The notes beneath the pieces are model-generated. The model made no database searches. It worked only from the letters and a program-made list of their open reading frames with translations, and was not told where the DNA came from. The position numbers were made by a program, and so were the translations under genes. From the IMG/VR virus record IMGVR_UViG_3300025880_000042: a DNA stretch of 34,816 bases. One strand, written 5' to 3'. Of the stretch, positions 3,671-34,603 are shown piece after piece. Source of the DNA: a virus. Position 1 is the stretch's first letter, and every line of letters starts with the position of its first letter.

Positions 3671-3871
3671 TTAAAGTTGTGTTCTATCTGCTGTTAATGT
3701 TGTTGTATCTGCCGTAAATAAAGTAGTGTCTGCTGTTAATCTGAACAAATCCCAACAAGTAGGGGCGGATATATCAGGTACTGCATTTGTACTCCAATAA
3801 GTGTCTGCTCCCCAACTATCATTGGTTGCCATATCACAATAAACTTTACCCCAATTTATGTTGTTTGCCAT
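3671..3871 (-). CDS. Small Trp-rich protein ending in three xTAD(T/R)T repeats
   Basis: 66-aa ORF with C-terminus LTADTTLFTADTTTLTADRTQL. The same short repeat occurs in ORF 15114..16214. Confidence 0.5.
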   Translation of the reverse strand: MANNINWGKVYCDMATNDSWGADTYWSTNAVPDISAPTCWDLFRLTADTTLFTADTTTLTADRTQL

Positions 3872-3952
3872 TGTTGTTAATTTGTTTTAAATAAGCTTCT
3901 AACTTTATTATATTACTTTGTTTAGGCTTATATGTTTTAATTTTATCTTTCT

Positions 3953-4468
3953 CTACAGAACCCATGAATGAAAGTTTACATCTTTGTCGGGGTACATCTC
4001 TCCATTAGTACTTTGATTATACTCAGGAAACAGTTGACTATAGAACCCCATGTAATCAACAAATCTCCTTGTGTAAAACTCAGCAGTCTCAGTAACCTTA
4101 TTTAGCATCATGGTCATTTCTTCCAACGAAATAGTTTCCGAGCTTTCTGAACGATGCTTGTAAACCCCTCCGTTACTGATCTGATACATTGCAAAAGGAA
4201 TGTAGTTGCTTTGAGTGAACCATATAAGCATAGGCTTGATATAATCATCCAATAAGTCTTTATAGTTTGAGTTACCTGCATCAGATATAGTTCCGTTTAA
4301 TATTAGTGTTTGTAATTTGTTATATAGTTTACCACCTAAGTAGTTTTGGATATGAGTATCTTGTGCTACTTCGATGAATTGTATAATTTTATCATTATCC
4401 ACATTTCCATCAATAATGGACTTGCGTTTTAGTTCTTCTAATCCTATGAATAGAGCTTTGTTCGCCAT
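3953..4468 (-). CDS. Hypothetical virion protein (head-tail connector candidate by position)
   Basis: 171-aa ORF immediately downstream of the portal gene. No diagnostic motif recognised. Confidence 0.45.
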   Translation of the reverse strand: MANKALFIGLEELKRKSIIDGNVDNDKIIQFIEVAQDTHIQNYLGGKLYNKLQTLILNGTISDAGNSNYKDLLDDYIKPMLIWFTQSNYIPFAMYQISNGGVYKHRSESSETISLEEMTMMLNKVTETAEFYTRRFVDYMGFYSQLFPEYNQSTNGEMYPDKDVNFHSWVL

Positions 4469-4473
4469 ATTAA

Positions 4474-6288
4474 TTATTTTTTAGTGTTTGGATAAGCTCC
4501 CCCATTCTTCATGTCAGAAGGTCTTACTGATACTTCTTTTGGGTTTTTGGGTTCAACAAATCCTTCTTCTGTAGCATCTGAAGCTTCAACTTCTGTGTTC
4601 TTACCCACTTTTTTCTTATAGACTCTTCTCTCCCACATGTGCTTACAGTTTTTTCCACCTTTGTAGAGAAACAAGCTATAGTTTTGCTTCTTATGTCCAA
4701 GATCTCTGTTAGCTCCTTTGAAAGACATCATTCCAATATCTTCTTTTCTAAACACTACATCTTTTTTAGTCAGAGCTTCCATCTTCTTGCAAAACACTCT
4801 ACTGTTAGCACTATTTCTTACAGGACCATAAGCATATCTTACTTTAAACCCTGCATTATCTTGCTTAGAGTCTTTATTGGGGTTGGCATCATCCTTAGAT
4901 ACTTTAGCTAAACTTGTTTTAAGCTCTTCTAATGAGGTTTCTGTTCCATCTAATAGTTGACTATCAATTAACTCCCATTCATCGCTTATAACCTCTCCTA
5001 AGTCTTCTAATTGCTCAAGCATATCCTCCCCATCTTCATCAGAGAAATCATCTAACTCAACTTCTTTTTGAGACGATAGGTTTTCAGATTGCTTCTCCCC
5101 TGTCTCTTCTTCCTTTCTTACTTTAGTAGATATGTTGTCTAACTCTGTAAATTCAATAGGTTGTAGAGTAATAAAGTATAGGTTTAAGAAGATTCCGTTA
5201 AAGTTTAGTATCTCGTTAAATCCATCAATTAAAGCCTGCTGAAATGGTCTAATAACAACATTGTCCATTATAATAGAAGCTGTTCTAAGCTCTTCTGCAT
5301 TGTTACCAAAGCCTGTGTTGTCCTTAATACCCATCAAGATAGGTGAAACAATTCTGTGACCCATCATAATCTTCTCTCTACTTTCTGTAGATAAGAATTG
5401 ATATTGTGCATGAGCATCAGGTAAATGTATTGGCTCTAAGTCAGCTTTAGTTTCTGCAGAGTCATTAAATGTAAGTATGAATTTACCTGCATTAGATGTT
5501 CCGCTAAACTTGTCGTATATCTTACTTTCTAATAACTCCTGAGTCTCTTCATTAGGTACTCCGTTATTAAAGTTGATTAGTAAGGAAGGTTGTAGACCAT
5601 TCTTTATGTTGTTGATATGGTAGTTAGATACTTCTTCTTCTAAAGAACAGTATTGTAAACAACCATTATAATCTACAGGTGCATAGTAATAAAAACCTGC
5701 TTTGTAAGGCTTAATTACAAATAACTCAATAACATCTGAATCAGAACCATTACCAAAAGTTGGTATTCTCTTAGGTTTGTCAGATGGTTTTATATCACAC
5801 CATTTAGGGTGGTAGTAGTAAGCTTTTATTTGACCATCAGTAGCTTTCTCAGCTCTTAATGTCTCCATTGGAAAGTGTAGTACTTTTACTATACTTGTTT
5901 TTTGCTTGTTGTAAACAAGCTGCATTGCAGACTGCCCAAGCATTTTATAGTCATTAACTACTTTCTTAACCTCTTTAGGTTTAAGTAGTAACTTCATTTT
6001 AGCATACATCTCAGGCTTAACATCTGAGTCAGTTGCATCTAAACCTCTACCATAAATCATCTCTACAATACCATTGATACAACCTGAATTGGTTGGACTA
6101 CCTAAGTATCTGTCAATTAACTGATCAAAGTAATCATTGTTTTCACCATACTGAACCCAATCCTTACCATACACCTCCTTAATCTCAGGAGCAGCATATC
6201 CTGAAAGATTAACAACCCTCACAGAACCCTCGCTAAATTTATTAGCAGGTTTTACGTTGTTATTTAATGTTACTCTTCTTTTAGCCAT
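4474..6288 (-). CDS. Portal protein fused to a C-terminal Mu-F / SPP1 gp7-like minor head domain
   Basis: 604-aa ORF. The N-terminal two thirds are portal-like (GSPTNSGCINGIVEMIYGRGL). An acidic linker is followed by SRVFCKKM...GGKNCKHMWERRVY, which resembles the Phage_Mu_F signature (R..C...nCrC/H). Confidence 0.7.
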   Translation of the reverse strand: MAKRRVTLNNNVKPANKFSEGSVRVVNLSGYAAPEIKEVYGKDWVQYGENNDYFDQLIDRYLGSPTNSGCINGIVEMIYGRGLDATDSDVKPEMYAKMKLLLKPKEVKKVVNDYKMLGQSAMQLVYNKQKTSIVKVLHFPMETLRAEKATDGQIKAYYYHPKWCDIKPSDKPKRIPTFGNGSDSDVIELFVIKPYKAGFYYYAPVDYNGCLQYCSLEEEVSNYHINNIKNGLQPSLLINFNNGVPNEETQELLESKIYDKFSGTSNAGKFILTFNDSAETKADLEPIHLPDAHAQYQFLSTESREKIMMGHRIVSPILMGIKDNTGFGNNAEELRTASIIMDNVVIRPFQQALIDGFNEILNFNGIFLNLYFITLQPIEFTELDNISTKVRKEEETGEKQSENLSSQKEVELDDFSDEDGEDMLEQLEDLGEVISDEWELIDSQLLDGTETSLEELKTSLAKVSKDDANPNKDSKQDNAGFKVRYAYGPVRNSANSRVFCKKMEALTKKDVVFRKEDIGMMSFKGANRDLGHKKQNYSLFLYKGGKNCKHMWERRVYKKKVGKNTEVEASDATEEGFVEPKNPKEVSVRPSDMKNGGAYPNTKK

Positions 6289-6668: not shown

Positions 6669-6713
6669 ATTATGATAACTGAAAAGTTAAAATTTGTTTT
6701 TATTTTGGTGTAT

Positions 6714-6744
6714 AAAAAAAGTGGAGAGTAATAAAACCCCCCAC
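6714..6744 (-). terminator. Rho-independent terminator after the putative tail-tube gene
   Basis: Minus strand reads GUGGGGGG-UUUUAUUA-CUCUCCAC (8-bp stem with two G-U pairs) followed by U7. Confidence 0.6.
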
Positions 6745-6757
6745 TCTTTAATGTGTG

Positions 6758-6783
6758 TACTATGTTTAAGTACTATGTTTAAG
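6758..6783. repeat. Exact tandem duplication of the 13-mer TACTATGTTTAAG
   Basis: Copies at 6758-6770 and 6771-6783 are identical. The second copy contains the TAA stop (6779-6781) of ORF 6779..7306. Confidence 0.95.
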
Positions 6784-7306
6784 AACCACTAACGATAGTA
6801 AATCCTACATTTTCAGGAGTATCTCCTAAAAAGTTTGCAGGTGTTCTTTCCATAGCAGTTAAAGTAAGTGTGTAACCGCTCAAGTCAGACATTGCTGTAC
6901 CTGTAACGATAGTACCACCTGTTACTTCCGCACCATGCTCTAAACCTGCTAAAAAGAAGTTTCCGTTGTAATCTTCAATAATTACATGAGGTCTTCCGAA
7001 AGCCAAGATTTTAAGCTCTTTGTGGTCAGCTACAGTTAATTTCTTCAAAGTAACCTCAAGAACCTGCTCAAATGCAGTTGTTCCTGTATCTCTTGAAGAT
7101 TGAATGTTTTGAGTAAAAGAAGAAGCTCCTTTAATTTCGTATTTGTATGCGTTAGGTGTTCCTGCTACTGCATCAATTACATCTGAATCGGTTAAATCAT
7201 AAGTGATTGCTCCTAAATCATCGTAATTAACAAAGTACAAGTTTTTTAAGCCACCAACACTATCTTTGCAAGGTTCTATCCTTCCTAATGTTAAATCACA
7301 AGCCAT
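6779..7306 (-). CDS. Abundant virion protein, probable major tail (tube) protein
   Basis: 175-aa ORF directly after the capsid gene and bracketed by two strong terminators. The Gly/Thr-rich beta-type sequence is tail-tube-like. The call is tentative. Confidence 0.4.
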   Translation of the reverse strand: MACDLTLGRIEPCKDSVGGLKNLYFVNYDDLGAITYDLTDSDVIDAVAGTPNAYKYEIKGASSFTQNIQSSRDTGTTAFEQVLEVTLKKLTVADHKELKILAFGRPHVIIEDYNGNFFLAGLEHGAEVTGGTIVTGTAMSDLSGYTLTLTAMERTPANFLGDTPENVGFTIVSGS

Positions 7307-7393: not shown

Positions 7394-8326
7394 TTATGCA
7401 GGTGTGTAAAGAACGATGTCTGAACCGATTCCGTACTGTACTCCACTTGTGTAACGCATTACCACACGAACATTCTGACTTCCATCAATGTCTGCCATGT
7501 CAATAACCTTTACTAAGTTATGGTCTGAAAGTAATCCTGTTCCGAAGAAGATGTTAGATTTTTCAGCAGCCATGATGTAGTTATCTCCCAATCCGTTTGC
7601 AACAAAGATTTTTACACCATCAAAAGATAATGCTCCGTTGTTCCACCATTGAGTTCCTTGTGCATTCACACCATTAGCACCTAATCCTGCAGCTCCAAAT
7701 CCTCCTAAAGCTCTAACGTAAGCTCTTGCTACGTTTTGAGATACATATAGGTACAAGTCTTCTTTTCCGTAAACTGCAGATGGAATAGCATCAACAACTT
7801 TCCCTAATTCGTCAATTACGTTAGCAGCAGTAATAGAAGTTCCTGCTACATCAACAACAGAAGCATCAGCAGTAGCCAAAGCAACTAATCCATCGAATTC
7901 ACCTGCAGTAGCGTTAGCTCCTGACCAAATAGTTTCCTCTGTTTTTTCAGCAACTTTAGCAGCAACATGTGCAACTAAGAAGTCTTGAAAAGATGGAGGC
8001 AAGTTGTCAAATGCAGAATATCCCATTTGTACTGCTTCCCAATCAGATACGAAGTCTTTCTTACATAATTCTAAGTTTACTTGAAACTCTTCAGGTTGTA
8101 AGATTCTTTCAGTTAATGTAATAGTTGAAGTAGGATCAAAATCACAAGTTGCATCTGCAACAAGGTCATTTGTAGATAATTTTTTCATTACCTCTTTGTA
8201 CTTCACATTTGGTTTTACTGTAATTCCACCATTCTCAATAGTAGAAGCAGATAATAAAGCAGCAGAGATATATTTACCTGCAAACTCACCTGCGTAAGTA
8301 GTAGTAATGTTAGTAGTTGTAGCCAT
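7394..8326 (-). CDS. Major capsid protein (HK97-fold type)
   Basis: 310-aa ORF directly after an acidic scaffold-like gene and followed by a strong terminator. The sequence character is typical of phage major capsid proteins. Confidence 0.7.
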   Translation of the reverse strand: MATTTNITTTYAGEFAGKYISAALLSASTIENGGITVKPNVKYKEVMKKLSTNDLVADATCDFDPTSTITLTERILQPEEFQVNLELCKKDFVSDWEAVQMGYSAFDNLPPSFQDFLVAHVAAKVAEKTEETIWSGANATAGEFDGLVALATADASVVDVAGTSITAANVIDELGKVVDAIPSAVYGKEDLYLYVSQNVARAYVRALGGFGAAGLGANGVNAQGTQWWNNGALSFDGVKIFVANGLGDNYIMAAEKSNIFFGTGLLSDHNLVKVIDMADIDGSQNVRVVMRYTSGVQYGIGSDIVLYTPA

Positions 8327-18127: not shown

Positions 18128-18400
18128 CTAACTTTTATATGCCCTTTTAATGGCATCTGCTTCTAATTTATTCTTCTCCTTCTCAAACTCAAGCCATATT
18201 AAGCATTGCTGTAGTGGAAGCTTGGTAACTTCTGAAATCCTTCTGACATCTCCCTGTGCAAGTCCGTAAATACTTTGATACCATCCCCACTTCTTTCCAA
18301 ATCCTTGTTCTGCGGTTGCAATTTGACCTGCTTGTCCACCTGATGCTGTAAATAGTCCATCATATAACCCGATAATTTTTTCCCTAAACGATAAAAAAAA
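18128..18400 (-). CDS. Start-less -1 frame extension reachable from ORF 18199..18927 by slippage on a T9 run
   Basis: Hand translation of the -1 frame after T_TTT_TTT (18394-18400): LSFREKIIGLYDGLFTASGGQAGQIATAEQGFGKKWGWYQSIYGLAQGDVRRISEVTKLPLQQCLIWLEFEKEKNKLEADAIKRAYKS. It stops at TAG 18128-18130, 2 nt before the next ATG. This frame contains no start codon. Confidence 0.5.
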   Translation of the reverse strand, partial: FFLSFREKIIGLYDGLFTASGGQAGQIATAEQGFGKKWGWYQSIYGLAQGDVRRISEVTKLPLQQCLIWLEFEKEKNKLEADAIKRAYKS

Positions 18401-18927
18401 ACAACCGCTCCTAAAGCAACATTTACAGGGGCATCTTTCATTATCTCTGCATACTTATCAGATCCTTCATAGTCCTCTATCACATAGAAACCTTTTTTAC
18501 CTGCAACAATAGGTCTATATAGCACGGCTAAAGCCTTGTGCATGTTCTGCCAATCCCCAATGTATTTCTCTACATCAATATACTCACCAAAGCTCATTTC
18601 ATCTAACTTAGGTATAAAGCCAAACTCTGCAGACACACCATCACTACCTGTCATGGTAAATCTCTGAACTAAAGGGGTATCCTCGTTAAAACACTCAGCT
18701 ACTTGTGCTATCACACTCTCAAACATAGATACAGGTAAACCATAACTATCCTTCAAAGTAAGATCACAGAATATCTCTAAAGACTTTAGATTTAAGAACT
18801 CTAATGCTTCAGGTGTCTCCTTATCTTCTATCCCATCTAATATCTTCAAATACTTCTGATACTGATGCAACTTGATAGCCTCTAAAGCCTGTGGCACTTT
18901 TACTTCTAAATCAACTACATTGCTCAT
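18199..18927 (-). CDS. Tail assembly chaperone-like protein (0-frame product)
   Basis: 242-aa ORF. MSFGEYIDVEKYIGDWQNMHKALAVLYRPI resembles tail assembly chaperone families. It carries the slippery T9 run. The 0-frame stop leaves an atypical 73-nt gap to the next gene. Confidence 0.45.
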   Translation of the reverse strand: MSNVVDLEVKVPQALEAIKLHQYQKYLKILDGIEDKETPEALEFLNLKSLEIFCDLTLKDSYGLPVSMFESVIAQVAECFNEDTPLVQRFTMTGSDGVSAEFGFIPKLDEMSFGEYIDVEKYIGDWQNMHKALAVLYRPIVAGKKGFYVIEDYEGSDKYAEIMKDAPVNVALGAVVFFYRLGKKLSGYMMDYLQHQVDKQVKLQPQNKDLERSGDGIKVFTDLHREMSEGFQKLPSFHYSNA

Positions 18928-19376
18928 ATAATAATCTCTATATATAGTATAACTAAAATCTATAATTATGTATCACTTATGAATAAACTATAAATTTTAT
19001 TTATGGTTAATTAAACAAATATAATAAAATAATATGACAATAGAGTGGTTTATGCTTGTACAAATTCCTGTTTTTTAGTTATCTTAGTATAGCAGTTGGA
19101 AATCTGTATAAGTTCCCAAACTTGTGTCATAAATGTTAGGCACTTGGATCAAGTAAACCTTGCTTAGGAATTGCGGTATTAGAACAATCTACTTTTATAT
19201 CTTTTGATGCACCCCAATACCATTCAACCTAACCATTCATTCAGCCATACAGTCTATTGGCACAGACACATATTAAAGATATTAAGGGGGTGCTTACATC
19301 TTCTTTCCATTTAATTCTATCAAGTCACCTCACTTGTACTTCCCTTAGAGAGTTACAACTAAGGTTACCAAAAGTT

Positions 19377-19457
19377 ATTGAATTCATAGAATCGGGTTAA
19401 TACACATACTAATCTTTCGTTTTACATTGAATTCATAGAATTGAGATAATACACATA
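19377..19457. repeat. Two 32-bp direct repeats (iteron-like), 49-bp period
   Basis: 19377-19408 is ATTGAATTCATAGAATCGGGTTAATACACATA and 19426-19457 is ATTGAATTCATAGAATTGAGATAATACACATA, a 29/32 match. Each has a TGAATTCA palindrome and ends in TAATACACA. Confidence 0.9.
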
Positions 19458-19525
19458 GAATATATTTATATTACGATCATTTAGCATAAGTAAACCTTAT
19501 ACTTAATCTAAGGCTATTTAGAGCG

Positions 19526-19561
19526 TGTTTAAGAGTGTTTAGAGTGTGGATAGTGTTAAGG
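19526..19561. repeat. Four tandem degenerate 8-10-mers including a DnaA-box-like 9-mer
   Basis: TGTTTAAGAG / TGTTTAGAG / TGTGGATAG / TGTTAAGG. TGTGGATAG (19545-19553) matches the complement of the DnaA box TTATCCACA at 8 of 9 positions. Confidence 0.7.
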
Positions 19562-19654
19562 TATTATTAATTTGTAATGGTTTGTTACCCCTATCCTATC
19601 TACTATATATGTAAACCAATAACCTACAAAAAAAGGCTATTAAAAACAAGGCAT

Positions 19655-19678
19655 AAAAAAACCCCCAATTAAGGAGGT
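19655..19678 (-). terminator. Rho-independent terminator closing the small-ORF island
   Basis: Minus strand reads ACCUCC-UUAAUU-GGGGGU (6-bp stem with one G-U pair) followed by U7, located 29 nt after the stop of ORF 19707..19931. Confidence 0.6.
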
Positions 19679-19706
19679 TTAAGACTGTTTAAATTGTAGG
19701 TATAAA

Positions 19707-20521: not shown

Positions 20522-20716
20522 TTATAATTCGTTTTTAATTGTAGGCAAGCAACCCATTAACCCGCCCTGATTCATATATTGGGTCCTGTGTTTTACTAAA
20601 TCATTTGTTAAGATGTACGAATTATCAGGCATTAAAATGATAAAGTCTTTTTTGCTTTTGCTTATTGAAAACCTTTGCTTAATTGGTAAGGCTTTTATTT
20701 TACTTATTAATGTCAT
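20522..20716 (-). CDS. Hypothetical small protein (accessory island)
   Basis: 64-aa ORF, tightly packed. Confidence 0.5.
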   Translation of the reverse strand: MTLISKIKALPIKQRFSISKSKKDFIILMPDNSYILTNDLVKHRTQYMNQGGLMGCLPTIKNEL

Positions 20717-21561: not shown

Positions 21562-21753
21562 TTAAATATTAAAGTTAGTATATAATTTACTGAAAGCTAA
21601 AATTGTGCAAGCTCCAAAGATTCCAAAGGTCATATCATTTAAAGGTAAGTTAAAACCTAAGGTTAAAAATAAACCCGCAGTTAATACAATTAATGTATAA
21701 ATAAATAAAGCGGTTAAAAATGTAGCTGTTAAAATGTTGGATAATGTTTTCAT
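21562..21753 (-). CDS. Small two-TM membrane protein (first gene of the island)
   Basis: 63-aa ORF, almost entirely hydrophobic (two helices). Confidence 0.5.
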   Translation of the reverse strand: MKTLSNILTATFLTALFIYTLIVLTAGLFLTLGFNLPLNDMTFGIFGACTILAFSKLYTNFNI

Positions 21754-21785
21754 GGTGTTTTTTGTTTTAATGATTAATTACATTT

Positions 21786-21816: not shown

Positions 21817-21964
21817 ACCATGCAAGAAAAAAACACACTTTTTTTTCACTTTTAACACTTTTTTAAGTTAAACCTTTGTTTTATCATGGTTTACATCTTT
21901 TCAAATACTTATATAATGAATCCCGCACACGCAAATACACCTTTATTTGAATTGTGCAAGCATT

Positions 21965-22011: not shown

Positions 22012-22034
22012 ATAACACAAGGGGCTAAGACCCC

Positions 22035-22128
22035 TACTATGTTTAAGAAGATGGTTGACCCCCTACTATGTTTAAGAGGATAGTAAACACCCTACTATGT
22101 TTAAGAAAAAACCCCTACTCGGTTTAAG
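22035..22128. repeat. Four same-orientation copies of the 13-mer TACTATGTTTAAG
   Basis: Copies start at 22035, 22064 and 22093 (all exact, each preceded by CCC) and at 22116 (TACTCGGTTTAAG). Spacing is 29/29/23 bp. Confidence 0.95.
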
Positions 22129-22136
22129 AGTAAGGG
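22106..22136 (-). terminator. Rho-independent terminator after the large terminase gene
   Basis: Minus strand reads CCCUUACUC-UUAAACC-GAGUAGGGG (9-bp stem with one G-U pair) followed by U6. The loop and 3' arm are the fourth 13-mer copy. Confidence 0.6.
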
Positions 22137-22178: not shown

Positions 22179-23399
22179 TTATCTAACTACATACTTTCCT
22201 GAATTAACTCCTTGCACTAAATATTGTAAAGAATATCTACAGGCATCCAAGAAGTGATTCCATTTGTCTATTGGCTTAGAGTTCTTATCCTGCCAAGTAT
22301 AGTTGTTAAGCTCTCTAATAACACCATGAGATTCTCTATCAACTATTATCTCAAAGTCTTGCATCAAGGCAATACCACTTAAAATACTCCCTTGTCTTTT
22401 GATAGTTGGTTTAACATTGACTCCTTTGCGTTTCATCTCGTTTATAAGTCTTGGTTCAGAGTTATCACAAATGATCAGGTCCATGCCGCACTCCATCTTA
22501 TTCCTTGTAGCTATCTCATCTGTGCTTAGACTCGGTTTACCATAAATCTCTTTAACCCACATCTTTCTACCTTCTTTATCTACAGAAATCTTTACAAGAG
22601 TTGTTAAATCGGTTGCGAACCCAAAATCCTGCCCATAACATGTATGCTCGGTCTGTAAGTACTCACCTACTCTCCAATTCTTAAAGATTGTTCCCTCTGC
22701 CTTAGCTAACCATCCCCCAAGGATCTGATGTTGGTATTTGTCAGGTCTTCTCTTCTTCATGTCCATTACCTGCACTAAGAAAGAGTCTGATAGGTTATCT
22801 TTATTATCTCTGTAGTCTGTGTGTATGTAAGTTATATCATTGTTAGAACCATTATAAGCATCTATAACACCATAAGACTGAAAGAATCTTTGGTATATCC
22901 AATGCTCTTTAGTTGTGGGGTTTAATATCAGAATACACCTGTTCTGTTTAGTCTGACTCCTTACAGAGAAGTCTATCTTATCAAAGACTGACTCATCTAT
23001 AAGCTCTTCTGCCTCATCTAATACAAAGGTTGTAACTCCGTTTAAAGACTTTAAAGCAGCAGTTTGATTACCCGATGATGTTCTAATACCCTTAAATATT
23101 ATAGAGCTTCCTGTAGTTAGATTTATGATCTCATCTTTAGTTATCCTAAAGTCTTCTGATACACCCATCATATCTATCTTCTCTATAAATTCAGGGATAA
23201 TAGAAGTCTGTGCGGAGATCATGGTATATCTTGTAAACAATACCTTATGACCTTCTTCATAGGTTAAGTTAAGTAAGAAAACGGCTACACCAAATGATTT
23301 ACCTGATCCTCGACCACCTGTAACTACAAAGTACCTACTTGGACTCTGCCATAGTGGTATATATTTCTCATGTATCTTTACCTCTTGTTTACTACTCAT
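22179..23399 (-). CDS. terL: Terminase large subunit (PBSX/XtmB-like family)
   Basis: 406-aa ORF. It has a Walker A motif (VVTGGRGSGKSF), a Walker B-like motif (TFVLDEAEE) and a C-terminal nuclease-like region, with the overall pattern of Terminase_3/PBSX-type large subunits. Confidence 0.85.
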   Translation of the reverse strand: MSSKQEVKIHEKYIPLWQSPSRYFVVTGGRGSGKSFGVAVFLLNLTYEEGHKVLFTRYTMISAQTSIIPEFIEKIDMMGVSEDFRITKDEIINLTTGSSIIFKGIRTSSGNQTAALKSLNGVTTFVLDEAEELIDESVFDKIDFSVRSQTKQNRCILILNPTTKEHWIYQRFFQSYGVIDAYNGSNNDITYIHTDYRDNKDNLSDSFLVQVMDMKKRRPDKYQHQILGGWLAKAEGTIFKNWRVGEYLQTEHTCYGQDFGFATDLTTLVKISVDKEGRKMWVKEIYGKPSLSTDEIATRNKMECGMDLIICDNSEPRLINEMKRKGVNVKPTIKRQGSILSGIALMQDFEIIVDRESHGVIRELNNYTWQDKNSKPIDKWNHFLDACRYSLQYLVQGVNSGKYVVR

Positions 23400-23820
23400 C
23401 GCTTTCTTCGTGGTCTATATCTATTGTGTTATCTATCTCTTTTTGTTCAGGAGCATTGTTATAGAAATTAATAACAGGTGCTTTAGTAGCCGCTACATTG
23501 TTTCCTTTCTCCTTGTCTATAGGTTTACCATACTTATACTGCCAAAGTAGGTTTAGGTGAGCGAATGATCCTTCCTTAGCCTTCTCTGCTAATGTCTCCC
23601 AAGCTTCAGACTCAGAACCAAACACTTTTTTCATAGCTTTTAAAGCATAGGTGGAAGCTCTATCCTTCTTTGCATTATTTATTTGTGCAGGTGTCATAGC
23701 TTTAGCTTTCTTAACAATCTCTCTTGTCTCTTGCTTAGATTGTTTCCTACTATTATTCTTCCTACCATCGGTAGACTTCTGATTCTTCATTGCTAAGGGG
23801 TTTTTTCTTGGTTTTGGCAT
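23392..23820 (-). CDS. Putative terminase small subunit
   Basis: 142-aa ORF that is basic at the N-terminus and acidic at the C-terminus. It overlaps the terL start by 8 nt. The call is mainly positional. Confidence 0.4.
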   Translation of the reverse strand: MPKPRKNPLAMKNQKSTDGRKNNSRKQSKQETREIVKKAKAMTPAQINNAKKDRASTYALKAMKKVFGSESEAWETLAEKAKEGSFAHLNLLWQYKYGKPIDKEKGNNVAATKAPVINFYNNAPEQKEIDNTIDIDHEESDE

Positions 23821-24056: not shown

Positions 24057-24635
24057 CTACAACATCTTTACCATTGCGTTTAACCTCTCAACCACTATAG
24101 GTAACTTGTTTTCAGGTATTTTGTTCACAATATCCCCTAAAACATTAGCTACCTTAGTTGATTCCTGTAACATTTGCAGTTCTGCAGTTGTTTCACGAAG
24201 CTCTTCCTTAAGTTTGGTGTTCTCATAATGTAAAACAGACTCCTTCATAGCTATGGAATCAACACCCTCCTCCTGTTGCTGCTTTAACTCTAACATCTCT
24301 ACATATCTAACGGCATAATCATCAAATGACTCCAATCCTCTTTTGTAAACTCGATTATGTTTATTGTAGAACTCGTGATTGTTATTAATGCTATGTAAAA
24401 CAGTAGAATGATCCTTATTTAGTAAAGCACCTATCTCTGAAAGAGGTGTAGAAGTGTAGGTCCTACTGAGGTAGTAATACATAGTCCTTGCTTTCACATA
24501 CTCATCTTTCCTTGTATTTCTATCTATGTTAAAACCATAATACCTATCTACAAATTGCTTGATCTTCTCTAATCTAATCTTGTTATGTAACTTATCTAAT
24601 AAATCTTGCTTCGCTTCTTTAACTGTCTTTGTCAT
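24057..24635 (-). CDS. DnaA domain IV-like HTH DNA-binding protein with a coiled-coil C-terminus
   Basis: 192-aa ORF. KARTMYYYLSRTYTSTPLSEIGALLNKDHSTVLHSINN matches the DnaA C-terminal DNA-binding signature (aR.iamyl.r.lt..sl.eIG..f..rdHsTVlha). Confidence 0.65.
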   Translation of the reverse strand: MTKTVKEAKQDLLDKLHNKIRLEKIKQFVDRYYGFNIDRNTRKDEYVKARTMYYYLSRTYTSTPLSEIGALLNKDHSTVLHSINNNHEFYNKHNRVYKRGLESFDDYAVRYVEMLELKQQQEEGVDSIAMKESVLHYENTKLKEELRETTAELQMLQESTKVANVLGDIVNKIPENKLPIVVERLNAMVKML

Positions 24636-26021: not shown

Positions 26022-26038
26022 AATAATTGTTTTAATGT

Positions 26039-26161
26039 TTATCTTAATGATGCCTCAAAGCATTGTGTTGAACATTCTCCTGCCTTATCCATAGGCTTTC
26101 CACATACTGAACATTCATAATCCTGCTCTTGTGGTTCTTCTAAGTAATCAAAGTAATTCAT
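26039..26161 (-). CDS. Small zinc-ribbon-like ORF (40 aa)
   Basis: Hand translation: MNYFDYLEEPQEQDYECSVCGKPMDKAGECSTQCFEASLR, with CxxC...CxxxC. It is preceded by a promoter-like box and a terminator. Confidence 0.4.
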   Translation of the reverse strand: MNYFDYLEEPQEQDYECSVCGKPMDKAGECSTQCFEASLR

Positions 26162-26182
26162 ATCTTATGTTTTAATGTTAAA

Positions 26183-26213
26183 CAAATATAAACAAAAATT
26201 GTTAATATTCAAC
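26183..26213 (-). promoter_or_regulatory. Candidate Bacteroidota-type promoter
   Basis: Minus strand reads GTTG-N19-TATATTTG, ending 21 nt upstream of the ATG at 26161 and directly after terminator 26222..26251. Confidence 0.35.
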
Positions 26214-26221
26214 TATGATAT

Positions 26222-26251
26222 AAAAAAAAGGAGAGATTTAATTGTCTCTCC
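26222..26251 (-). terminator. Rho-independent terminator
   Basis: Minus strand reads GGAGAGA-CAAUUAAA-UCUCUCC followed by U8. It overlaps the stop codon of small ORF 26238..26378. Confidence 0.7.
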
Positions 26252-26378
26252 ATTGAATGTAGCATACTGCTCGCCTTTGTTGTATGTTAGGGTATTCCCT
26301 AAGCATAACATCATCAGCCATACACCTGCTCATAAAATCCTTTTGCATCTCATCTTCTCGTGGTATTGGTAGTGGCAT
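26238..26378 (-). CDS. Small ORF (46 aa)
   Basis: Hand translation: MPLPIPREDEMQKDFMSRCMADDVMLREYPNIQQRRAVCYIQWRDN. It starts 2 nt after the upstream stop. Confidence 0.45.
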   Translation of the reverse strand: MPLPIPREDEMQKDFMSRCMADDVMLREYPNIQQRRAVCYIQWRDN

Positions 26379-26380
26379 AA

Positions 26381-28096: not shown

Positions 28097-28660
28097 TTAG
28101 TTTTTATTTATTAAATGATAGTCTCCGTTATAAAAGTCAAGGACATCTTCTTCAAACTTGTCCTTTAGTATTTTCTTATAATTCTTCACAGAGTTAAAGA
28201 TAGAGGTTAAGCTGATCTTACTTCCTGTAGCTATATCTCTCAAAGATAGATTAGATTTGTAGTATGTGTTGCACAACTTAGCATCGTACAAGTGCCAAGA
28301 GTTTATCTCTTCTGTAATACTACTCATTAACTTAGTGAAAGCCTGATCCTTTTCGAGGTCTGTCATGTCGTTAATAAACATCTCATCTTCATCATCTTCC
28401 TTGTCAGTCTCTATATACTCAAAGAAAGTATATTTATTTTTAGCTTTCCTGTAATCTATGTAAAGGTTTTTAAGTGTTACAAATACATAAAACCTATTAA
28501 CCTCTTCATCATTGTACATTATTTTATTCTCATCAGATATAAGTCTATGCAGTTTAATGTACATTTCTTGCACAATATCCTCCGCAACATCTTTAGAGCA
28601 ACCCATGTTTATAACCATCTTCAGCCACAACAAGTGTTCTTTAGCTAATAGTTCTAACAT
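28097..28660 (-). CDS. Phage-encoded sigma-70 family (ECF-like) sigma factor
   Basis: 187-aa ORF. It has a region-2-like segment (VAEDIVQEMYIKLHRL...FYVFVTLKNLYIDYRK) and a region-4 HTH-like segment (LSLRDIATGSKISLTSIFNSVKNYKKIL). Confidence 0.6.
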   Translation of the reverse strand: MLELLAKEHLLWLKMVINMGCSKDVAEDIVQEMYIKLHRLISDENKIMYNDEEVNRFYVFVTLKNLYIDYRKAKNKYTFFEYIETDKEDDEDEMFINDMTDLEKDQAFTKLMSSITEEINSWHLYDAKLCNTYYKSNLSLRDIATGSKISLTSIFNSVKNYKKILKDKFEEDVLDFYNGDYHLINKN

Positions 28661-31970: not shown

Positions 31971-32687
31971 TTAACTAATTGCTTTTAGTGATTTTAAATA
32001 AAGCTTCTTCATATAATTGAATTGATCAACTTCATTTGAGTAACCCTGAATAAAGTTTCTTTTAGTCATGTGATGTATTGCATCAGGATTTATTCCATCA
32101 AAGTCATAATAAAGTTTCTTTAAAGCTCTTACTACTTTGTTTCCAAAAGGATTAGCACCCGTCTCCAAATCACTCATTATCTTAACACACTCATAAACCT
32201 CGCTCGCAATCTTCTTGTTTATAAAGTATTTTCCATGCTTTAGTCTGTATAAGATATTATAACCTGAAGTGTCTATAAGAAGCTCTAATGTTTTAATCAT
32301 AGACATCTTTCTGTTTGTTTCTTCATACCAAACTTTAGCTATCTCTAAAGCATCTGCACAATCCTTATTACCTTTTTTTGCCCAACTATTACAGTAGTCT
32401 AAAGCGGTCCATTTCTTGCTCTCTTGCAATTTAGATATATGATCTTCAGATGCTCCTCTTGACACTATATAAGGTACAGGTAATTTATTGCTCTTCAATG
32501 CTAAGAATCTGTGCTGACCCTCTATAATGTCATAATTACTGTTAACAACAATAGGAACTTGAACACCTATATCTAAGATAGATTCCTCGATCTTTTTAAG
32601 GTTAGCCTTGTTAATCTCTCTGTTGCTTTCTACGAAGTTAAAGATTGAATAATCTCTTGTCTCTCCTAAATACCAATTTGTAGTCAT
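31971..32687 (-). CDS. ParB/Srx-fold (ParB N-terminal nuclease-like) domain protein
   Basis: 238-aa ORF. VPIVVNSNYDIIEGQHRFLAL is the ParB-N motif. EGQHR also resembles the DGQHR motif of DndB-type proteins. Confidence 0.6.
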   Translation of the reverse strand: MTTNWYLGETRDYSIFNFVESNREINKANLKKIEESILDIGVQVPIVVNSNYDIIEGQHRFLALKSNKLPVPYIVSRGASEDHISKLQESKKWTALDYCNSWAKKGNKDCADALEIAKVWYEETNRKMSMIKTLELLIDTSGYNILYRLKHGKYFINKKIASEVYECVKIMSDLETGANPFGNKVVRALKKLYYDFDGINPDAIHHMTKRNFIQGYSNEVDQFNYMKKLYLKSLKAIS

Positions 32688-32717
32688 TTTGTTTTTGTTT
32701 TAATGATTAATATGAAG

Positions 32718-32749
32718 CGAATATATATAATAATATAATTCAAGTCAAG
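32718..32749 (-). promoter_or_regulatory. Candidate promoter for the ParB-like operon
   Basis: Minus strand reads CTTG-N20-TATATTCG (one mismatch in each Bacteroidota element). It can also be read as TTGACT-N17-TATATT. It lies just downstream of terminator 32778..32809. Confidence 0.35.
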
Positions 32750-32777
32750 GCTTTAACAAAACTTTAACATAGTTAAC

Positions 32778-32809
32778 AAAAAAAGAGGTTAGCTTTCACT
32801 AACCCCTCT
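32778..32809 (-). terminator. Rho-independent terminator
   Basis: Minus strand reads AGAGGGGUUAG-UGAAAG-CUAACCUCU (9-bp stem with one G-U pair, extendable by two more pairs only by drawing on the following U-tract) followed by U7. Confidence 0.7.
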
Positions 32810-33757: not shown

Positions 33758-34210
33758 TTACCTGTTCTCTTTTTTAGCAGATCCAAAGTAGAATCCAAAT
33801 ATACTTAAAGCAACACCCTCTACAATACCTAATAGGTGTATAAATATCTCTTTATTAGATGCAGGAACTTCTGTAGTAACAACTGTATATACTAAAAATG
33901 CAAAAGCTAAAAGACCTACGATACCTGTTACATTAAACATCCAATCAGTACCATACTTTCTAAGAGCTACCTCTCTTCTCCTCGCAGAATCTCTATCTCT
34001 AACCTCTAACTCATACATGTCAACTAAGTGAGCATGAGCCTGCTCCTTTTCATCATCAGTTAAATCAGGGTCTGTATCTATAAGTTTCTTAACAACACCT
34101 AATAAACCTCTATCAGGTAATAAGTCACCTATAGCTTCTCCTACAGAAGAACTACTACCTAAAAGGAATTTACCGAGCTTAGTATCTCTAAATGGTTTCT
34201 TATCTATCAT
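33758..34210 (-). CDS. Holin-like membrane protein
   Basis: 150-aa ORF immediately after the endolysin. It has two clear C-terminal TM helices (WMFNVTGIVGLLAFAFLVYTVV and IFIHLLGIVEGVALSIFGFYFG) and a charged middle (DRDSARRRE), and resembles GTA/3TM-type holins. Confidence 0.5.
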   Translation of the reverse strand: MIDKKPFRDTKLGKFLLGSSSSVGEAIGDLLPDRGLLGVVKKLIDTDPDLTDDEKEQAHAHLVDMYELEVRDRDSARRREVALRKYGTDWMFNVTGIVGLLAFAFLVYTVVTTEVPASNKEIFIHLLGIVEGVALSIFGFYFGSAKKENR

Positions 34211-34211
34211 A

Positions 34212-34239
34212 TACTATGTTTAAGAGTACTATGTTTAAT
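34212..34239. repeat. Two copies of the 13-mer TACTATGTTTAAG filling the endolysin-holin junction
   Basis: 34212-34224 is an exact copy. 34227-34239 is TACTATGTTTAAT (1 mismatch) and contains the endolysin TAA stop (34235-34237). The first copy ends 1 nt from the holin-like ATG. Confidence 0.95.
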
Positions 34240-34603
34240 AGGTCCAAATTACATTGGCTACTTTATCGGGATCTCGATCTACATGTATAAATGTATCAGC
34301 AATACCTATCCTATTTAAACCAACCTTTAATAATGCACTTATTATTATATGCCTTGCAGAGCTATTTGTGCAAGCAATATCTGCTGCTAAACCTTTTAAG
34401 TGAGAAGATTTAGTTGATGCTTTATAACCTCTTTTCAATAACCCTTCGTTATACTCTTTAGTTCTATAACCTGATGTTATTCTAAATGGTATGTCGCACA
34501 ATGAACGAGCCTGATCAAGCCTACTTAAAAACTCTTTATCCATAGCTTCGCCACTTCCCACCATATCAGGACTATCAAACTCAGAAAGTTTAAAATACTT
34601 CAT
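34235..34603 (-). CDS. Peptidase M15 family endolysin (zinc D-Ala-D-Ala / L-Ala-D-Glu peptidase type)
   Basis: 122-aa ORF with SGYRT, SSHLKGLAAD (H-x6-D) and FIHVD, the intact His/Asp/His zinc-ligand pattern of the Peptidase_M15_3/VanY-like fold. Confidence 0.8.
   Translation of the reverse strand: MKYFKLSEFDSPDMVGSGEAMDKEFLSRLDQARSLCDIPFRITSGYRTKEYNEGLLKRGYKASTKSSHLKGLAADIACTNSSARHIIISALLKVGLNRIGIADTFIHVDRDPDKVANVIWTY

What the first reader, a model, noticed from the sequence alone, without database searches (positions are those of the whole stretch)
22035..22128. Four same-strand copies of a 13-mer (TACTATGTTTAAG) downstream of terL; the same 13-mer recurs in tandem at two other gene junctions
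Plus-strand copies start at 22035, 22064 and 22093 (exact, each preceded by CCC) and at 22116 (TACTCGGTTTAAG). Spacing is 29/29/23 bp. By eye, the only other copies are tandem pairs at 6758..6783 and 34212..34239. That gives 8 copies, 6 of them exact, all in one orientation. There is also an 11/13 inverted copy at 32762..32774 and GTTTAAGA cores near 19527 and 19677. An exact 13-mer should not recur by chance in 35 kb. The array sits in a 425-bp ORF-free gap next to T11 and T9 tracts, and its fourth copy forms the loop and 3' arm of the terL terminator. It is not palindromic. Candidate roles are (a) a binding array for a phage DNA-binding protein, such as the small terminase at a pac-type site, the ParB-like protein or the DnaA-type HTH protein; (b) a module-boundary recombination sequence; or (c) an RNA element (CUUAAACAUAGUA on the sense transcript). 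I cannot assign it to any described element.
Basis: seen in the sequence. Interest (0 to 1): 0.8.

Follow-up and report, generated by a model that had tools for sequence, protein, structure and literature searches.

The report
Polar box arrays ending phage operons
A 13-17 bp one-directional DNA motif, repeated in pairs or fours right after the terminase gene and at two other gene ends of an uncultured marine flavobacterial phage, is real and conserved in hundreds of relatives; it is most likely the binding box of the phage's own small protein that carries only the DNA-binding domain of DnaA, so the unknown role of such proteins in marine phages becomes testable.

Summary
TACTATGTTTAAG occurs 6 times exactly (0.03 expected), plus 2 near-copies, all on the + strand. 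All genes lie on the minus strand, so the sense form is CTTAAACATAGTA.

Comparison with relatives widens the site to about 17 nt: YY-C-TTAAAC-RY-AGTA-SS. Arrays are almost always sense-oriented and hold 2 or 4 copies in 82 of 98 unique arrays. They start at or within 12 nt of the upstream stop codon in 60 of 98, and sit next to intrinsic terminators. The array after terL is positionally conserved. Sister phages carry other motif families (B, C, D) at the same place.

No per-unit RNA fold, Rfam family or multi-copy cluster among the returned bacterial or archaeal genome hits was found. The terS-like protein does not covary with motif type.

The best candidate ligand is the window protein 24057-24635, a DnaA-domain-IV fold plus coiled coil. 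Its residue equivalent to DnaA His434 is His in all A-type phages, Arg in B/C and Tyr in D. The motif core TTAAACATA matches the DnaA box at 6 of 9 positions. Finer B-versus-C covariation fails.

Most likely function: polar protein-DNA barriers (stoperator-like) at the ends of transcription units. An origin-iteron role is the main rival. An odd-period spacing rule remains unexplained.

The parts
22116..22128 (-). First (terL-proximal) copy of the main array, degenerate: CTTAAACCGAGTA. It forms the loop and 3' arm of the terL terminator hairpin.
22112..22136 (-). Intrinsic-terminator-like hairpin (9 pairs) followed by T6, downstream of terL.
22093..22105 (-). Exact copy CTTAAACATAGTA followed by GGG.
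22064..22076 (-). Exact copy CTTAAACATAGTA followed by GGGGG.
22035..22047 (-). Exact copy, last of the array, followed by GGGG.
22017..22037 (-). Second terminator-like hairpin, overlapping the last three bases of the last copy and extending downstream of it.
6771..6783 (-). Exact copy. Its TAA (6779-6781) is the stop codon of gene 6779-7306, the gene that follows the major-capsid-like gene.
   Evidence: Positionally conserved in relatives found with the portal protein.
6758..6770 (-). Exact copy directly abutting the previous one (period 13).
6709..6749 (-). Strong terminator hairpin plus U7, starting 8 nt after the tandem pair.
   Evidence: z = -4.1
34227..34239 (-). One-mismatch copy ATTAAACATAGTA. 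Its TAA (34235-34237) is the stop codon of the M15-peptidase (endolysin-like) gene 34235-34603.
34212..34224 (-). Exact copy ending 1 nt before the ATG (34208-34210) of gene 33758-34210.
   Evidence: The same junction occurs in L016, L097 and L288.
19671..19694 (-). Two degenerate copies (ATTTAAACAGTCT, CTTAAACCTCCTT) at the end of the small-gene island, overlapping terminator 19659-19680. This is the remnant of the second array seen in relatives.
19521..19533 (-). Degenerate copy CTTAAACACGCTC.
24057..24635 (-). Candidate ligand: a 192-aa protein with an N-terminal DnaA-domain-IV-like HTH and a C-terminal coiled coil.
22179..23399 (-). Large terminase gene, the positional anchor of the main array.

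Best explanation
The motif is a polar (asymmetric, one-orientation) protein-binding box of about 17 bp, YY-C-TTAAAC-RY-AGTA-SS. It is used in tandem sets of two or four at the 3' ends of transcription units.

Its most likely ligand is the phage's own DnaA-domain-IV-like protein (window 24057-24635). This protein has a monomeric HTH module of the kind that reads asymmetric 9-mers, joined to a coiled coil that would pair two modules.

Bound arrays would act as orientation-dependent protein-DNA barriers that back up or modulate the adjacent intrinsic terminators. They would work at three places:
- after terL, where they would insulate the inserted, hypervariable small-gene island from the flanking operons;
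- after the capsid-adjacent gene;
- between the endolysin-like gene and the next gene.

Because the boxes are the only sequence conserved between diverged relatives at these junctions, they also serve as recombination points for module exchange.

What is shown: the motif, its polarity, its positional conservation, its association with terminators and stop codons, the existence of motif families, the fold of the protein, and coarse covariation between protein and motif.

What is inferred: that this protein binds the boxes, and that binding blocks transcription.
For: 1. The recurrence is non-random: 6 exact copies against 0.03 expected.
2. Polarity. There are 487 sense against 15 antisense core matches over 155 loci plus the window. 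The antisense ones are loose singletons, mostly inside genes. The 39 loci tabulated from the portal-protein scan have no antisense copies.
3. Position.
- The array directly after terL is kept in all relatives with terL at 79% identity or above whose contig extends past terL, except L017 (80%), which carries motif D there; it is also kept in some relatives at 77%.
- A second array closes the variable island in L022, L069, L093 and L082.
- The pair overlapping the stop codon of the capsid-adjacent gene, followed by a terminator, is kept even though the terminator sequence is replaced.
- Of 98 unique arrays, 35 use the motif's TAA as the upstream gene's stop codon, and 25 more begin within 12 nt of it.
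- Copy number is 2 or 4 in 82 of 98.
4. Terminator hairpins lie before, inside or just after the arrays.
5. The evidence points to a DNA-level element.
- There is no per-unit fold.
- Flank complementarity shows no excess.
- The 3' flank is GG or CC but rarely A/T.
- Many copies lie downstream of strong terminators.
6. Sister phages carry motif families B, C and D at the same site.
7. The candidate ligand.
- Pfam Bac_DnaA_C scores 1e-14.
- The AF2 model has pLDDT 81. Residues about 20-95 superpose on DnaA DNA-binding domains bound to DNA, with TM 0.76-0.79.
- The profile alignment equates R42 with DnaA R399 and D75-H76 and H81 with D433-H434 and H439.
- In DnaA, R399 reads 5'-TTA and the helix reads TnCACA (PMC5742627). 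The motif core TTAAACATA keeps TTA, C6, A7 and A9.
8. Covariation.
- The H434-equivalent is His in every A-type locus, covering at least 14 helix variants. It is Arg in every B/C-type locus, covering at least 7 clusters. It is Tyr in D-type L017, whose protein is otherwise nearest to A-type proteins.
- Contigs recovered through a Tyr-type protein (P0049) carry the D array.
- Contigs recovered through the C motif carry C-type proteins.
- Between B and C phages terL is 93-94% identical and terS 92%, but this protein is only 37-39% identical.
9. Precedents. Stoperators of Cluster A mycobacteriophages are oriented with transcription (PMC6550527). The DnaA/dnaA-box complex terminates transcription in one orientation; for this I saw only the titles of Schaefer & Messer 1988 and 1989 in a reference list.
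Against: - Fine covariation fails. L054 has a C-type protein but an array reading B B C B B B. L034 has C copies with a third protein type. L047 and L072 have B arrays with other Arg-type proteins.
- Within the A type, the protein diverges to 26-33% identity with no change in the motif.
- The coarse His/Arg/Tyr correlation rests on few independent evolutionary events and could reflect linkage.
- The motif matches the DnaA box at only 6 of 9 positions, and the extra GTA-SS part has no assigned reader.
- Placement relative to terminators is inconsistent for a simple backstop. At 6758-6783 the boxes precede the hairpin; after terL most copies follow one.
- No binding, transcript-end or timing data exist.
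- The phage shows no integrase or repressor, so an immunity role like that of stoperators is unlikely.
- The odd-period rule is not explained by this model.
Confidence: 0.4

Rival explanations
1. The arrays are replication-origin iterons. The terL-distal array or arrays are the phage origin, bound by the same DnaA-domain-IV-like protein acting as origin-binding protein. The pairs elsewhere are auxiliary or regulatory sites.
For: - Four tandem direct repeats lie next to the most AT-rich part of the window, at 28.5% GC.
- A conserved GC-rich island lies 100-250 nt downstream.
- The candidate ligand has the fold of an initiator's DNA-binding domain.
- In relatives, arrays bracket a segment as in bipartite origins.
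- The protein gene is hypervariable and the motif comes in families, as with lambdoid O/ori specificity types (from my own knowledge).
- A PF08299-only protein in pelagiphages has been suggested to act in replication (PMC8477408).
Against: - An origin does not need strict co-orientation with transcription.
- It does not explain why arrays begin at or within 12 nt of stop codons in 60 of 98 cases.
- It does not explain the conserved pairs after the capsid-adjacent gene and the endolysin gene.
- The protein lacks an AAA+ or unwinding domain.
- The array is about 2 kb from the gene, beyond terS and terL.
- GC skew gives no signal.
Confidence: 0.22
2. The motif is a sense-strand RNA element in 3' UTRs and intergenic mRNA. 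It would be a binding site for an RNA-binding protein or RNA that controls termination, antitermination, mRNA stability or translation of the next gene.
For: - Copies are sense-strand only.
- They sit immediately after stop codons, and sometimes 1-6 nt before the next ATG.
- They lie upstream of the terminator at the capsid-adjacent site.
- The motif resembles boxA/nutL at 10 of 12 positions when the ACU flank is present (recalled from memory; a lead only).
Against: - There is no conserved fold and no flank pairing.
- No Rfam family matches.
- After terL, most copies lie downstream of strong terminators.
- The CUC flank needed for boxA is not conserved; position -1 can be any base.
- GG and CC flanks are interchangeable.
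- All genes are on one strand, so sense-only polarity does not discriminate between RNA and DNA.
- Motif family tracks a DNA-binding protein.
Confidence: 0.15
3. The array after terL is the packaging recognition site (pac or cosB-like), bound by the small terminase.
For: - The array is adjacent to terS and terL in every relative.
- It consists of tandem direct repeats, as in some pac/cosB regions (from my own knowledge).
- Many metagenomic contigs end near the array.
Against: - The terS-like protein 23392-23820 is 92% identical between B and C phages and similar between A and D, so it does not covary with the motif.
- Conserved copies occur at other junctions.
- Contig ends are not at a fixed nucleotide and are expected at repeats.
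- The D-type phage region shows the array only once, but that does not identify terS as the binder.
Confidence: 0.08
4. The boxes have no ligand. They are short conserved boundary sequences, or selfish mini-repeats, maintained because they promote homologous exchange of modules.
For: - Mosaic breakpoints coincide with arrays. L007 against L011 is 96% identical upstream, 100% across the array and 35% downstream. L011 against L018 is 71% upstream and 91% downstream.
- Insertions of foreign genes occur at or within arrays.
- Copy number and spacers vary between close relatives.
Against: - Exact conservation of a 13-mer across phages whose proteins are 26-60% identical needs selection on the sequence itself, as do the fixed polarity, the 2/4 copy number and the odd period.
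- Recombination alone does not explain distinct motif families at the same site.
Confidence: 0.07

Closest known systems
Stoperators of Cluster A mycobacteriophages (L5 gp71 / Bxb1 repressor sites)
   Same: Both are 13-bp asymmetric sites. [quoted passage not shown] In both, the consensus differs between related phage groups (PMC6550527). The proposed action is the same: a bound protein blocks elongating RNA polymerase.
   Different: This phage has only about 8 copies, in tandem pairs or quads at 3-4 loci, rather than 20-30 dispersed single sites. No repressor, integrase or other sign of lysogeny was found. The candidate ligand has a DnaA-domain-IV fold, not the L5-type repressor. The hosts are marine Bacteroidota, and the boxes are tightly associated with intrinsic terminators.
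DnaA boxes and the DnaA/dnaA-box transcription block
   Same: Both are asymmetric sites read by a DnaA-domain-IV HTH. The 5' TTA plus C6, A7 and A9 of the box are retained. DnaA-box clusters occur in one orientation, and the DnaA/box complex is reported to terminate transcription in one orientation (Schaefer & Messer 1989; only the title was seen, in the reference list of PMC10950094).
   Different: The match to TTATCCACA is 6 of 9, and the site is longer (13-17 bp). The protein is a 192-aa phage product with no AAA+ domain. The sites lie at gene ends in a phage genome, not at oriC or in promoters.
Iterons of phage and plasmid origins (for example lambda ori/O specificity types, P1 incC/incA)
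   Same: Both are tandem direct repeats in sets of about four, next to AT-rich DNA. In both, repeat sequence and binding protein come in specificity types, and extra repeat clusters occur away from the main set.
   Different: Spacing here is irregular (13-49 bp) rather than helically phased. The boxes keep strict polarity with transcription, overlap stop codons and include sites within late operons. The initiator-like protein lacks known helicase-loading or unwinding parts.
PeSL regulatory cassettes of T4-type phages and 'boundary sequences' of lambdoid phages
   Same: Both are short conserved intergenic elements that flank hyperplastic accessory-gene regions and coincide with mosaic junctions.
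   Different: PeSLs are promoter-plus-stem-loop units. The boxes here are neither promoters nor hairpins.

Membership tests
Stoperator (Cluster A mycobacteriophage) | Asymmetric site of about 13 bp | tested here: met
   The 13-mer is non-palindromic, and the position matrix shows an asymmetric 17-nt site.
Stoperator (Cluster A mycobacteriophage) | One orientation relative to transcription | tested here: met
   487 sense against 15 loose antisense matches; no antisense array was seen in the loci inspected. However, nearly all genes are on one strand, so the test has little discriminating power.
Stoperator (Cluster A mycobacteriophage) | 20-30 mostly single sites dispersed over the genome | tested here: not met
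   There are 8 good copies in three clusters, plus degenerate remnants, in 34.8 kb.
Stoperator (Cluster A mycobacteriophage) | Bound by the immunity repressor of a temperate phage | tested here: not met
   Pfam and PHROG scans of 46 of the 56 window ORFs (those left out are mostly short) found no integrase or repressor. Binding itself cannot be tested with these tools.
DnaA box | 9-mer close to TTATCCACA | tested here: not met
   The core TTAAACATA matches at 6 of 9 positions (read from the sequence; consensus parts from PMC5742627).
DnaA box | Read by a DnaA-domain-IV HTH | tested here: inconclusive
   A phage protein with this fold exists and tracks motif family coarsely. Fine covariation fails. 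Binding was not tested.
Origin iterons | Tandem direct repeats of about 17-22 bp next to an AT-rich unwinding region | tested here: inconclusive
   The repeats are present, and the neighbouring DNA is the most AT-rich in the window. No unwinding element was defined.
Origin iterons | Single locus in or next to the initiator gene | tested here: not met
   Sites occur at 3-4 loci. The main array is about 2 kb from gene 24057-24635, beyond terS and terL.
pac / cosB small-terminase binding site | Repeat type covaries with the small terminase | tested here: not met
   The terS-like protein is 92% identical between B- and C-type phages, and the D-type protein resembles the A type.
pac / cosB small-terminase binding site | Genome termini or a packaging start at the site | not testable with these tools
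   This needs raw reads (PhageTerm) or virion DNA. Contig ends near the arrays are not at a fixed base.
Intrinsic terminator | GC-rich hairpin followed by a U tract | tested here: not met
   This holds only for the copy at 22116, which borrows flanks to form a hairpin. The motif itself has no stem, and flank pairing is at chance level.
boxA / nut antitermination site | Conserved GCUCUU(U)A core in the transcript, upstream of the terminators it suppresses | tested here: not met
   The CU at positions -3/-2 is only Y-Y, and position -1 varies among C, A, G and T. Most copies after terL follow a terminator. The boxA consensus is recalled from memory.
Curated RNA families / tRNA / CRISPR-like arrays | Match to an Rfam model or a tRNA | tested here: not met
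   No Rfam hit reached the gathering threshold. One sub-threshold chance hit had E = 0.85. No tRNA was found.

The most novel reading that the evidence does not exclude
The boxes and the DnaA-domain-IV-only protein form a fast-diversifying specificity pair. Virulent marine flavophages, and by extension the many marine phages that carry PF08299-only proteins, would use it as programmable polar barriers. The strict odd-period rule (A 97 of 106 spacers, B 35 of 37, C 18 of 20) together with the 2/4 copy rule would mean the arrays are read by a motor that steps 2 bp at a time, such as the packaging terminase. Adjacent copies would then always cover both registers. On this reading the arrays are polar stop or pause signals for a DNA translocase rather than for RNA polymerase.
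Probability: 0.1. Interest if true: 0.85.

Novelty: new variant of a known kind. Interest (0 to 1): 0.6.

Why it matters
Small proteins that consist only of the DnaA DNA-binding domain are common in marine phages. A profile search found 145 clusters at 50% identity with E <= 1e-10, and such proteins are also noted in HTVC010P-type pelagiphages (PMC8477408). No target or function is known for them.

This locus offers a concrete and abundant candidate target: a polar box with defined families (A to D), fixed genomic positions and a testable residue-to-motif correspondence (His, Arg or Tyr).

If confirmed, it would extend the stoperator principle, in which dispersed polar protein roadblocks punctuate a phage genome, from temperate actinophages to apparently virulent phages of Bacteroidota. 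It would also explain why mosaic junctions cluster after terL in this large uncultured group. Finally, it would give annotators a marker for the ends of transcription units in genomes that lack Shine-Dalgarno and sigma-70 signals.

Tried and rejected
- **Host repeat (USS-, Chi- or REP-like).** No multi-copy clusters were seen.
- **Cultured relatives.** There is no megablast hit in INPHARED. The nearest isolate, Nonlabens phage P12024L (terL 49.5% identical), has no such arrays, and its terL abuts the homologue of 18199-18927. The region after terL in this phage family is therefore an inserted island.
- **RNA structure.** Folding three arrays gave only the known terminators. z was -3.7 for the window region, driven by two hairpins, and -1.9 and -1.3 for the others. 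Flank complementarity around copies equals the shuffled expectation.
- **Rfam and tRNA.** Nothing was found.
- **terS as ligand.** Rejected for lack of covariation. The PDB sequence search with the terS-like protein was empty.
- **Stop codons in all frames.** Periods are spread evenly over the mod-3 classes.
- **Helical phasing.** There is no 10.5-bp periodicity.
- **Promoter reading.** The -7 box TAnnTTTG is not satisfied on either strand once the variable flanks are considered.
- **Conserved small island gene as ligand.** 20522-20716 (64 aa) is present in most A-type islands but absent from several A-type clades. I did not pursue it.
- **Strict B-versus-C covariation with the DnaA-like protein.** It was first suggested, then contradicted by L034 and L054.
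- **Exact 16-mer hits in other viral contigs.** Several lie inside PDDEXK genes, encoding ILKHSRA, and are not arrays.
- **Literature.** The Schaefer & Messer 1989 and Fujikawa 2003 papers could not be read.

Full report
**1. Observation**

The 13-mer TACTATGTTTAAG occurs six times exactly on the + strand, starting at 6758, 6771, 22035, 22064, 22093 and 34212. The expectation from shuffles is 0.03. Near-copies lie at 22116 and 34227.

All credible ORFs are on the minus strand, so the sense form is CTTAAACATAGTA. At 6779-6781 and 34235-34237 the TAA inside the motif is the stop codon of the upstream gene. The copy at 34212 ends 1 nt before the next ATG. The copy at 22116 sits inside a hairpin-plus-T6 terminator (22112-22136), and the last copy abuts a second hairpin. 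The pair at 6758-6783 is followed 8 nt later by a strong hairpin plus U7.

**2. The genome**

- terL is 22179-23399 (PHROG 2).
- The portal gene is 4474-6288, and the capsid-like gene is 7394-8326.
- An M15 peptidase gene lies at 34235-34603.
- ERF, PDDEXK, AAA_25, a sigma-like gene and a ParB-like gene are also present.
- No integrase or repressor was found.
- Leaders are A-rich, lack Shine-Dalgarno sequences and carry TAnnTTTG boxes.
- The nearest isolate is Nonlabens phage P12024L, with terL 49.5% identical.

The window therefore comes from an uncultured siphophage of marine Flavobacteriaceae.

**3. Relatives**

A terL scan of IMG/VR returned 80 loci at 75-97% identity. A 16-mer scan returned 79 loci, many with 2-4 copies.

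The array directly after terL is present in all relatives with terL at 79% identity or above whose contig extends past terL, except L017 (80%), which carries motif D there. It is also present in some at 77%.

A position matrix from 292 unique contexts gives YY-C-TTAAAC-RY-AGTA-SS. The middle dinucleotide is AT (298 copies) or GC (149), and rarely AC (11) or GT (1).

Core matches are 487 sense against 15 antisense, and the antisense ones are loose singletons.

Other conserved positions are:
- a second array that closes the variable small-gene island, 0.3-3 kb downstream;
- the endolysin / next-gene junction;
- the stop codon of the capsid-adjacent gene, followed by a terminator whose sequence differs between relatives.

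At the last site the boxes have decayed in some lineages while the terminator remains.

Of 98 unique arrays, 82 have 2 or 4 copies. Thirty-five use the motif's TAA as the upstream stop codon, and 25 more start within 12 nt of it.

**4. Motif families**

Phages with terL at 75-78% identity carry other repeats at the same site:
- B, GTTTAATAT(G/A)ATGGGGT;
- C, TCCGTCTTTGTTATGGGGGT;
- D, CCTCTTTTTTTTAGTACCCCC.

A and D share CTT-N5-TAGTA-SSSS. A and B align in the same orientation at 7 of 12 positions.

**5. What it is not**

- It is not a repeat within any bacterial or archaeal genome returned by the capped scan.
- It is not an Rfam family or a tRNA.
- It is not a per-unit hairpin.
- It shows no helical or codon periodicity.
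- It is not tied to the terS-like protein, which is 92% identical between B and C phages.
- P12024L has no arrays, and its terL abuts the homologue of 18199-18927. The region after terL in this phage family is therefore an inserted island bracketed by arrays.
- Mosaic breakpoints fall at the arrays.

**6. Candidate ligand**

Gene 24057-24635 encodes a 192-aa protein.
- Pfam Bac_DnaA_C scores 1e-14.
- The AF2 model is all-helical with pLDDT 81. Residues about 20-95 superpose on DnaA domain IV bound to DNA, with TM 0.76-0.79, and long C-terminal helices follow.
- The profile alignment equates R42 with DnaA R399 and D75-H76 and H81 with D433-H434 and H439.
- In DnaA, R399 reads 5'-TTA in the minor groove and the helix reads TnCACA (PMC5742627).
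- The motif core TTAAACATA keeps TTA, C6, A7 and A9.

An HMM of the family finds a homologue in most loci whose sequence covers the region (108 hits), including B- and C-type loci.

The His434-equivalent residue follows the motif family:
- His in all A-type loci (at least 14 helix variants);
- Arg in all B/C loci (at least 7 clusters);
- Tyr in D-type L017, whose protein is otherwise closest to A-type proteins.

Contigs retrieved through a Tyr-type protein (P0049) carry four D boxes after terL. Contigs retrieved through another His-type protein (P0032) carry four A boxes. C-motif contigs carry C-type proteins.

The gene is the most diverged in its syntenic block: 37-39% identity, against 92-94% for terS and terL.

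There are caveats.
- L054 pairs a C-type protein with a mostly-B array. L034 pairs C copies with a third protein type.
- A-type proteins diverge to 26-33% identity without any change in the motif.
- The number of independent evolutionary events behind the correlation is small.

**7. Mechanism**

I favour polar protein-DNA barriers at the ends of transcription units, for four reasons:
- the strict polarity;
- the start of arrays at stop codons, even where the intergenic space is long;
- the association with terminators;
- the precedents of stoperators (PMC6550527) and of the DnaA/dnaA-box transcription block (titles only).

The main rival is an origin-iteron role for the terL-distal arrays. RNA-level, pac-site and pure recombination readings are less likely. 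Confidence in the favoured model as a whole is about 0.4.

**8. Unexplained**

Centre-to-centre periods are almost always odd: 97 of 106 unique A spacers (49 of 58 spacer clusters), 35 of 37 for B and 18 of 20 for C. The longer even periods (38, 44, 46, 64) hide a degenerate copy, so each is the sum of two odd periods. No model above predicts this. One speculative reading is register coverage for a motor that steps 2 bp at a time.

**9. Novelty**

Proteins consisting only of the DnaA DNA-binding domain are widespread. The profile search found 145 clusters with E <= 1e-10, and they have been noted in pelagiphages. No target site has been reported in the searched literature. I rate this a new variant of a known kind: dispersed polar binding sites with a cognate phage protein.

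Noticed in passing
All A-, B- and C-type arrays (the window plus loci L001-L364): Centre-to-centre spacing of adjacent copies is almost always odd: 97 of 106 for A, 35 of 37 for B and 18 of 20 for C. Copy number is 2 or 4 in 82 of 98 arrays. There is no helical or codon periodicity, and I have no explanation.
   Followed up: partly
window 18928-19706 (minus strand): A 779-nt ORF-free gap follows the small-gene island. It holds a near-consensus DnaA box CTATCCACA (19553-19545) and two roughly 33-nt direct repeats, GTGTATTAxCxCxATTCTATGAATTCAAT (about 19455-19370). No Rfam family matches.
   Followed up: partly
window 21922-21932 (+ strand CCCGCACACGC); L368 12810-12870; many loci: A GC-rich island, mostly alternating purine-pyrimidine, lies 100-250 nt downstream of the terL array. 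Its position is conserved in A-, B- and D-type relatives within otherwise AT-rich DNA. It could be a cleavage site or part of an origin.
   Followed up: no
Relatives: L007-L010, L022, L026, L069, L076, L082; window remnant about 19507-19522: The palindrome TTATTTAGA-N4-TCTAAATA lies immediately downstream of many arrays and upstream of the next promoter. It looks like an operator for a dimeric regulator.
   Followed up: no
window 21754-21775 and 32688-32710, with 32740-32790: An identical leader, TAATCATTAAAACAAAA, precedes the ATG of genes 21562-21753 and 31971-32687. Each is preceded by TGTTAAA(G) repeats and a TAnnTTTG box.
   Followed up: partly
L086, L089, L111, L140, L153: The exact 16-mer CTTAAACATAGTAGGG also occurs inside PDDEXK/DUF3799 nuclease genes of other phages, where it encodes ILKHSRA. 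These are probably chance matches picked up by the exact-match scan. The window's own PDDEXK gene lacks it.
   Followed up: partly
L013, L066, L039, L061/L067 (just downstream of terL): Foreign insertions sit between terL and the array or inside it: a ParB-like gene (L013), an HNH-like gene (L066), a tRNA-like sequence (L039) and an antisense 95-aa ORF that splits a B array (L061/L067). The site is an insertion hot spot.
   Followed up: no
window 26022-26380 (minus strand): This 359-nt 'gap' contains an unlisted small ORF that encodes a cysteine-rich (CxxC...C) peptide of about 42 aa, after a terminator and a promoter-like region.
   Followed up: no
window 28097-28660 (minus strand): This gene encodes a sigma-factor-like protein (PHROG 1740, 1.8e-5; weak YlxM/sigma-4 HTH). 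It is conserved in A- and B-type relatives and in P12024L. Its promoters were not identified.
   Followed up: no
window 3914-3926: A two-mismatch sense copy (CCTAAACAAAGTA) lies in the intergenic space between genes 3953-4468 and 3671-3871. It may be a decayed single box.
   Followed up: no
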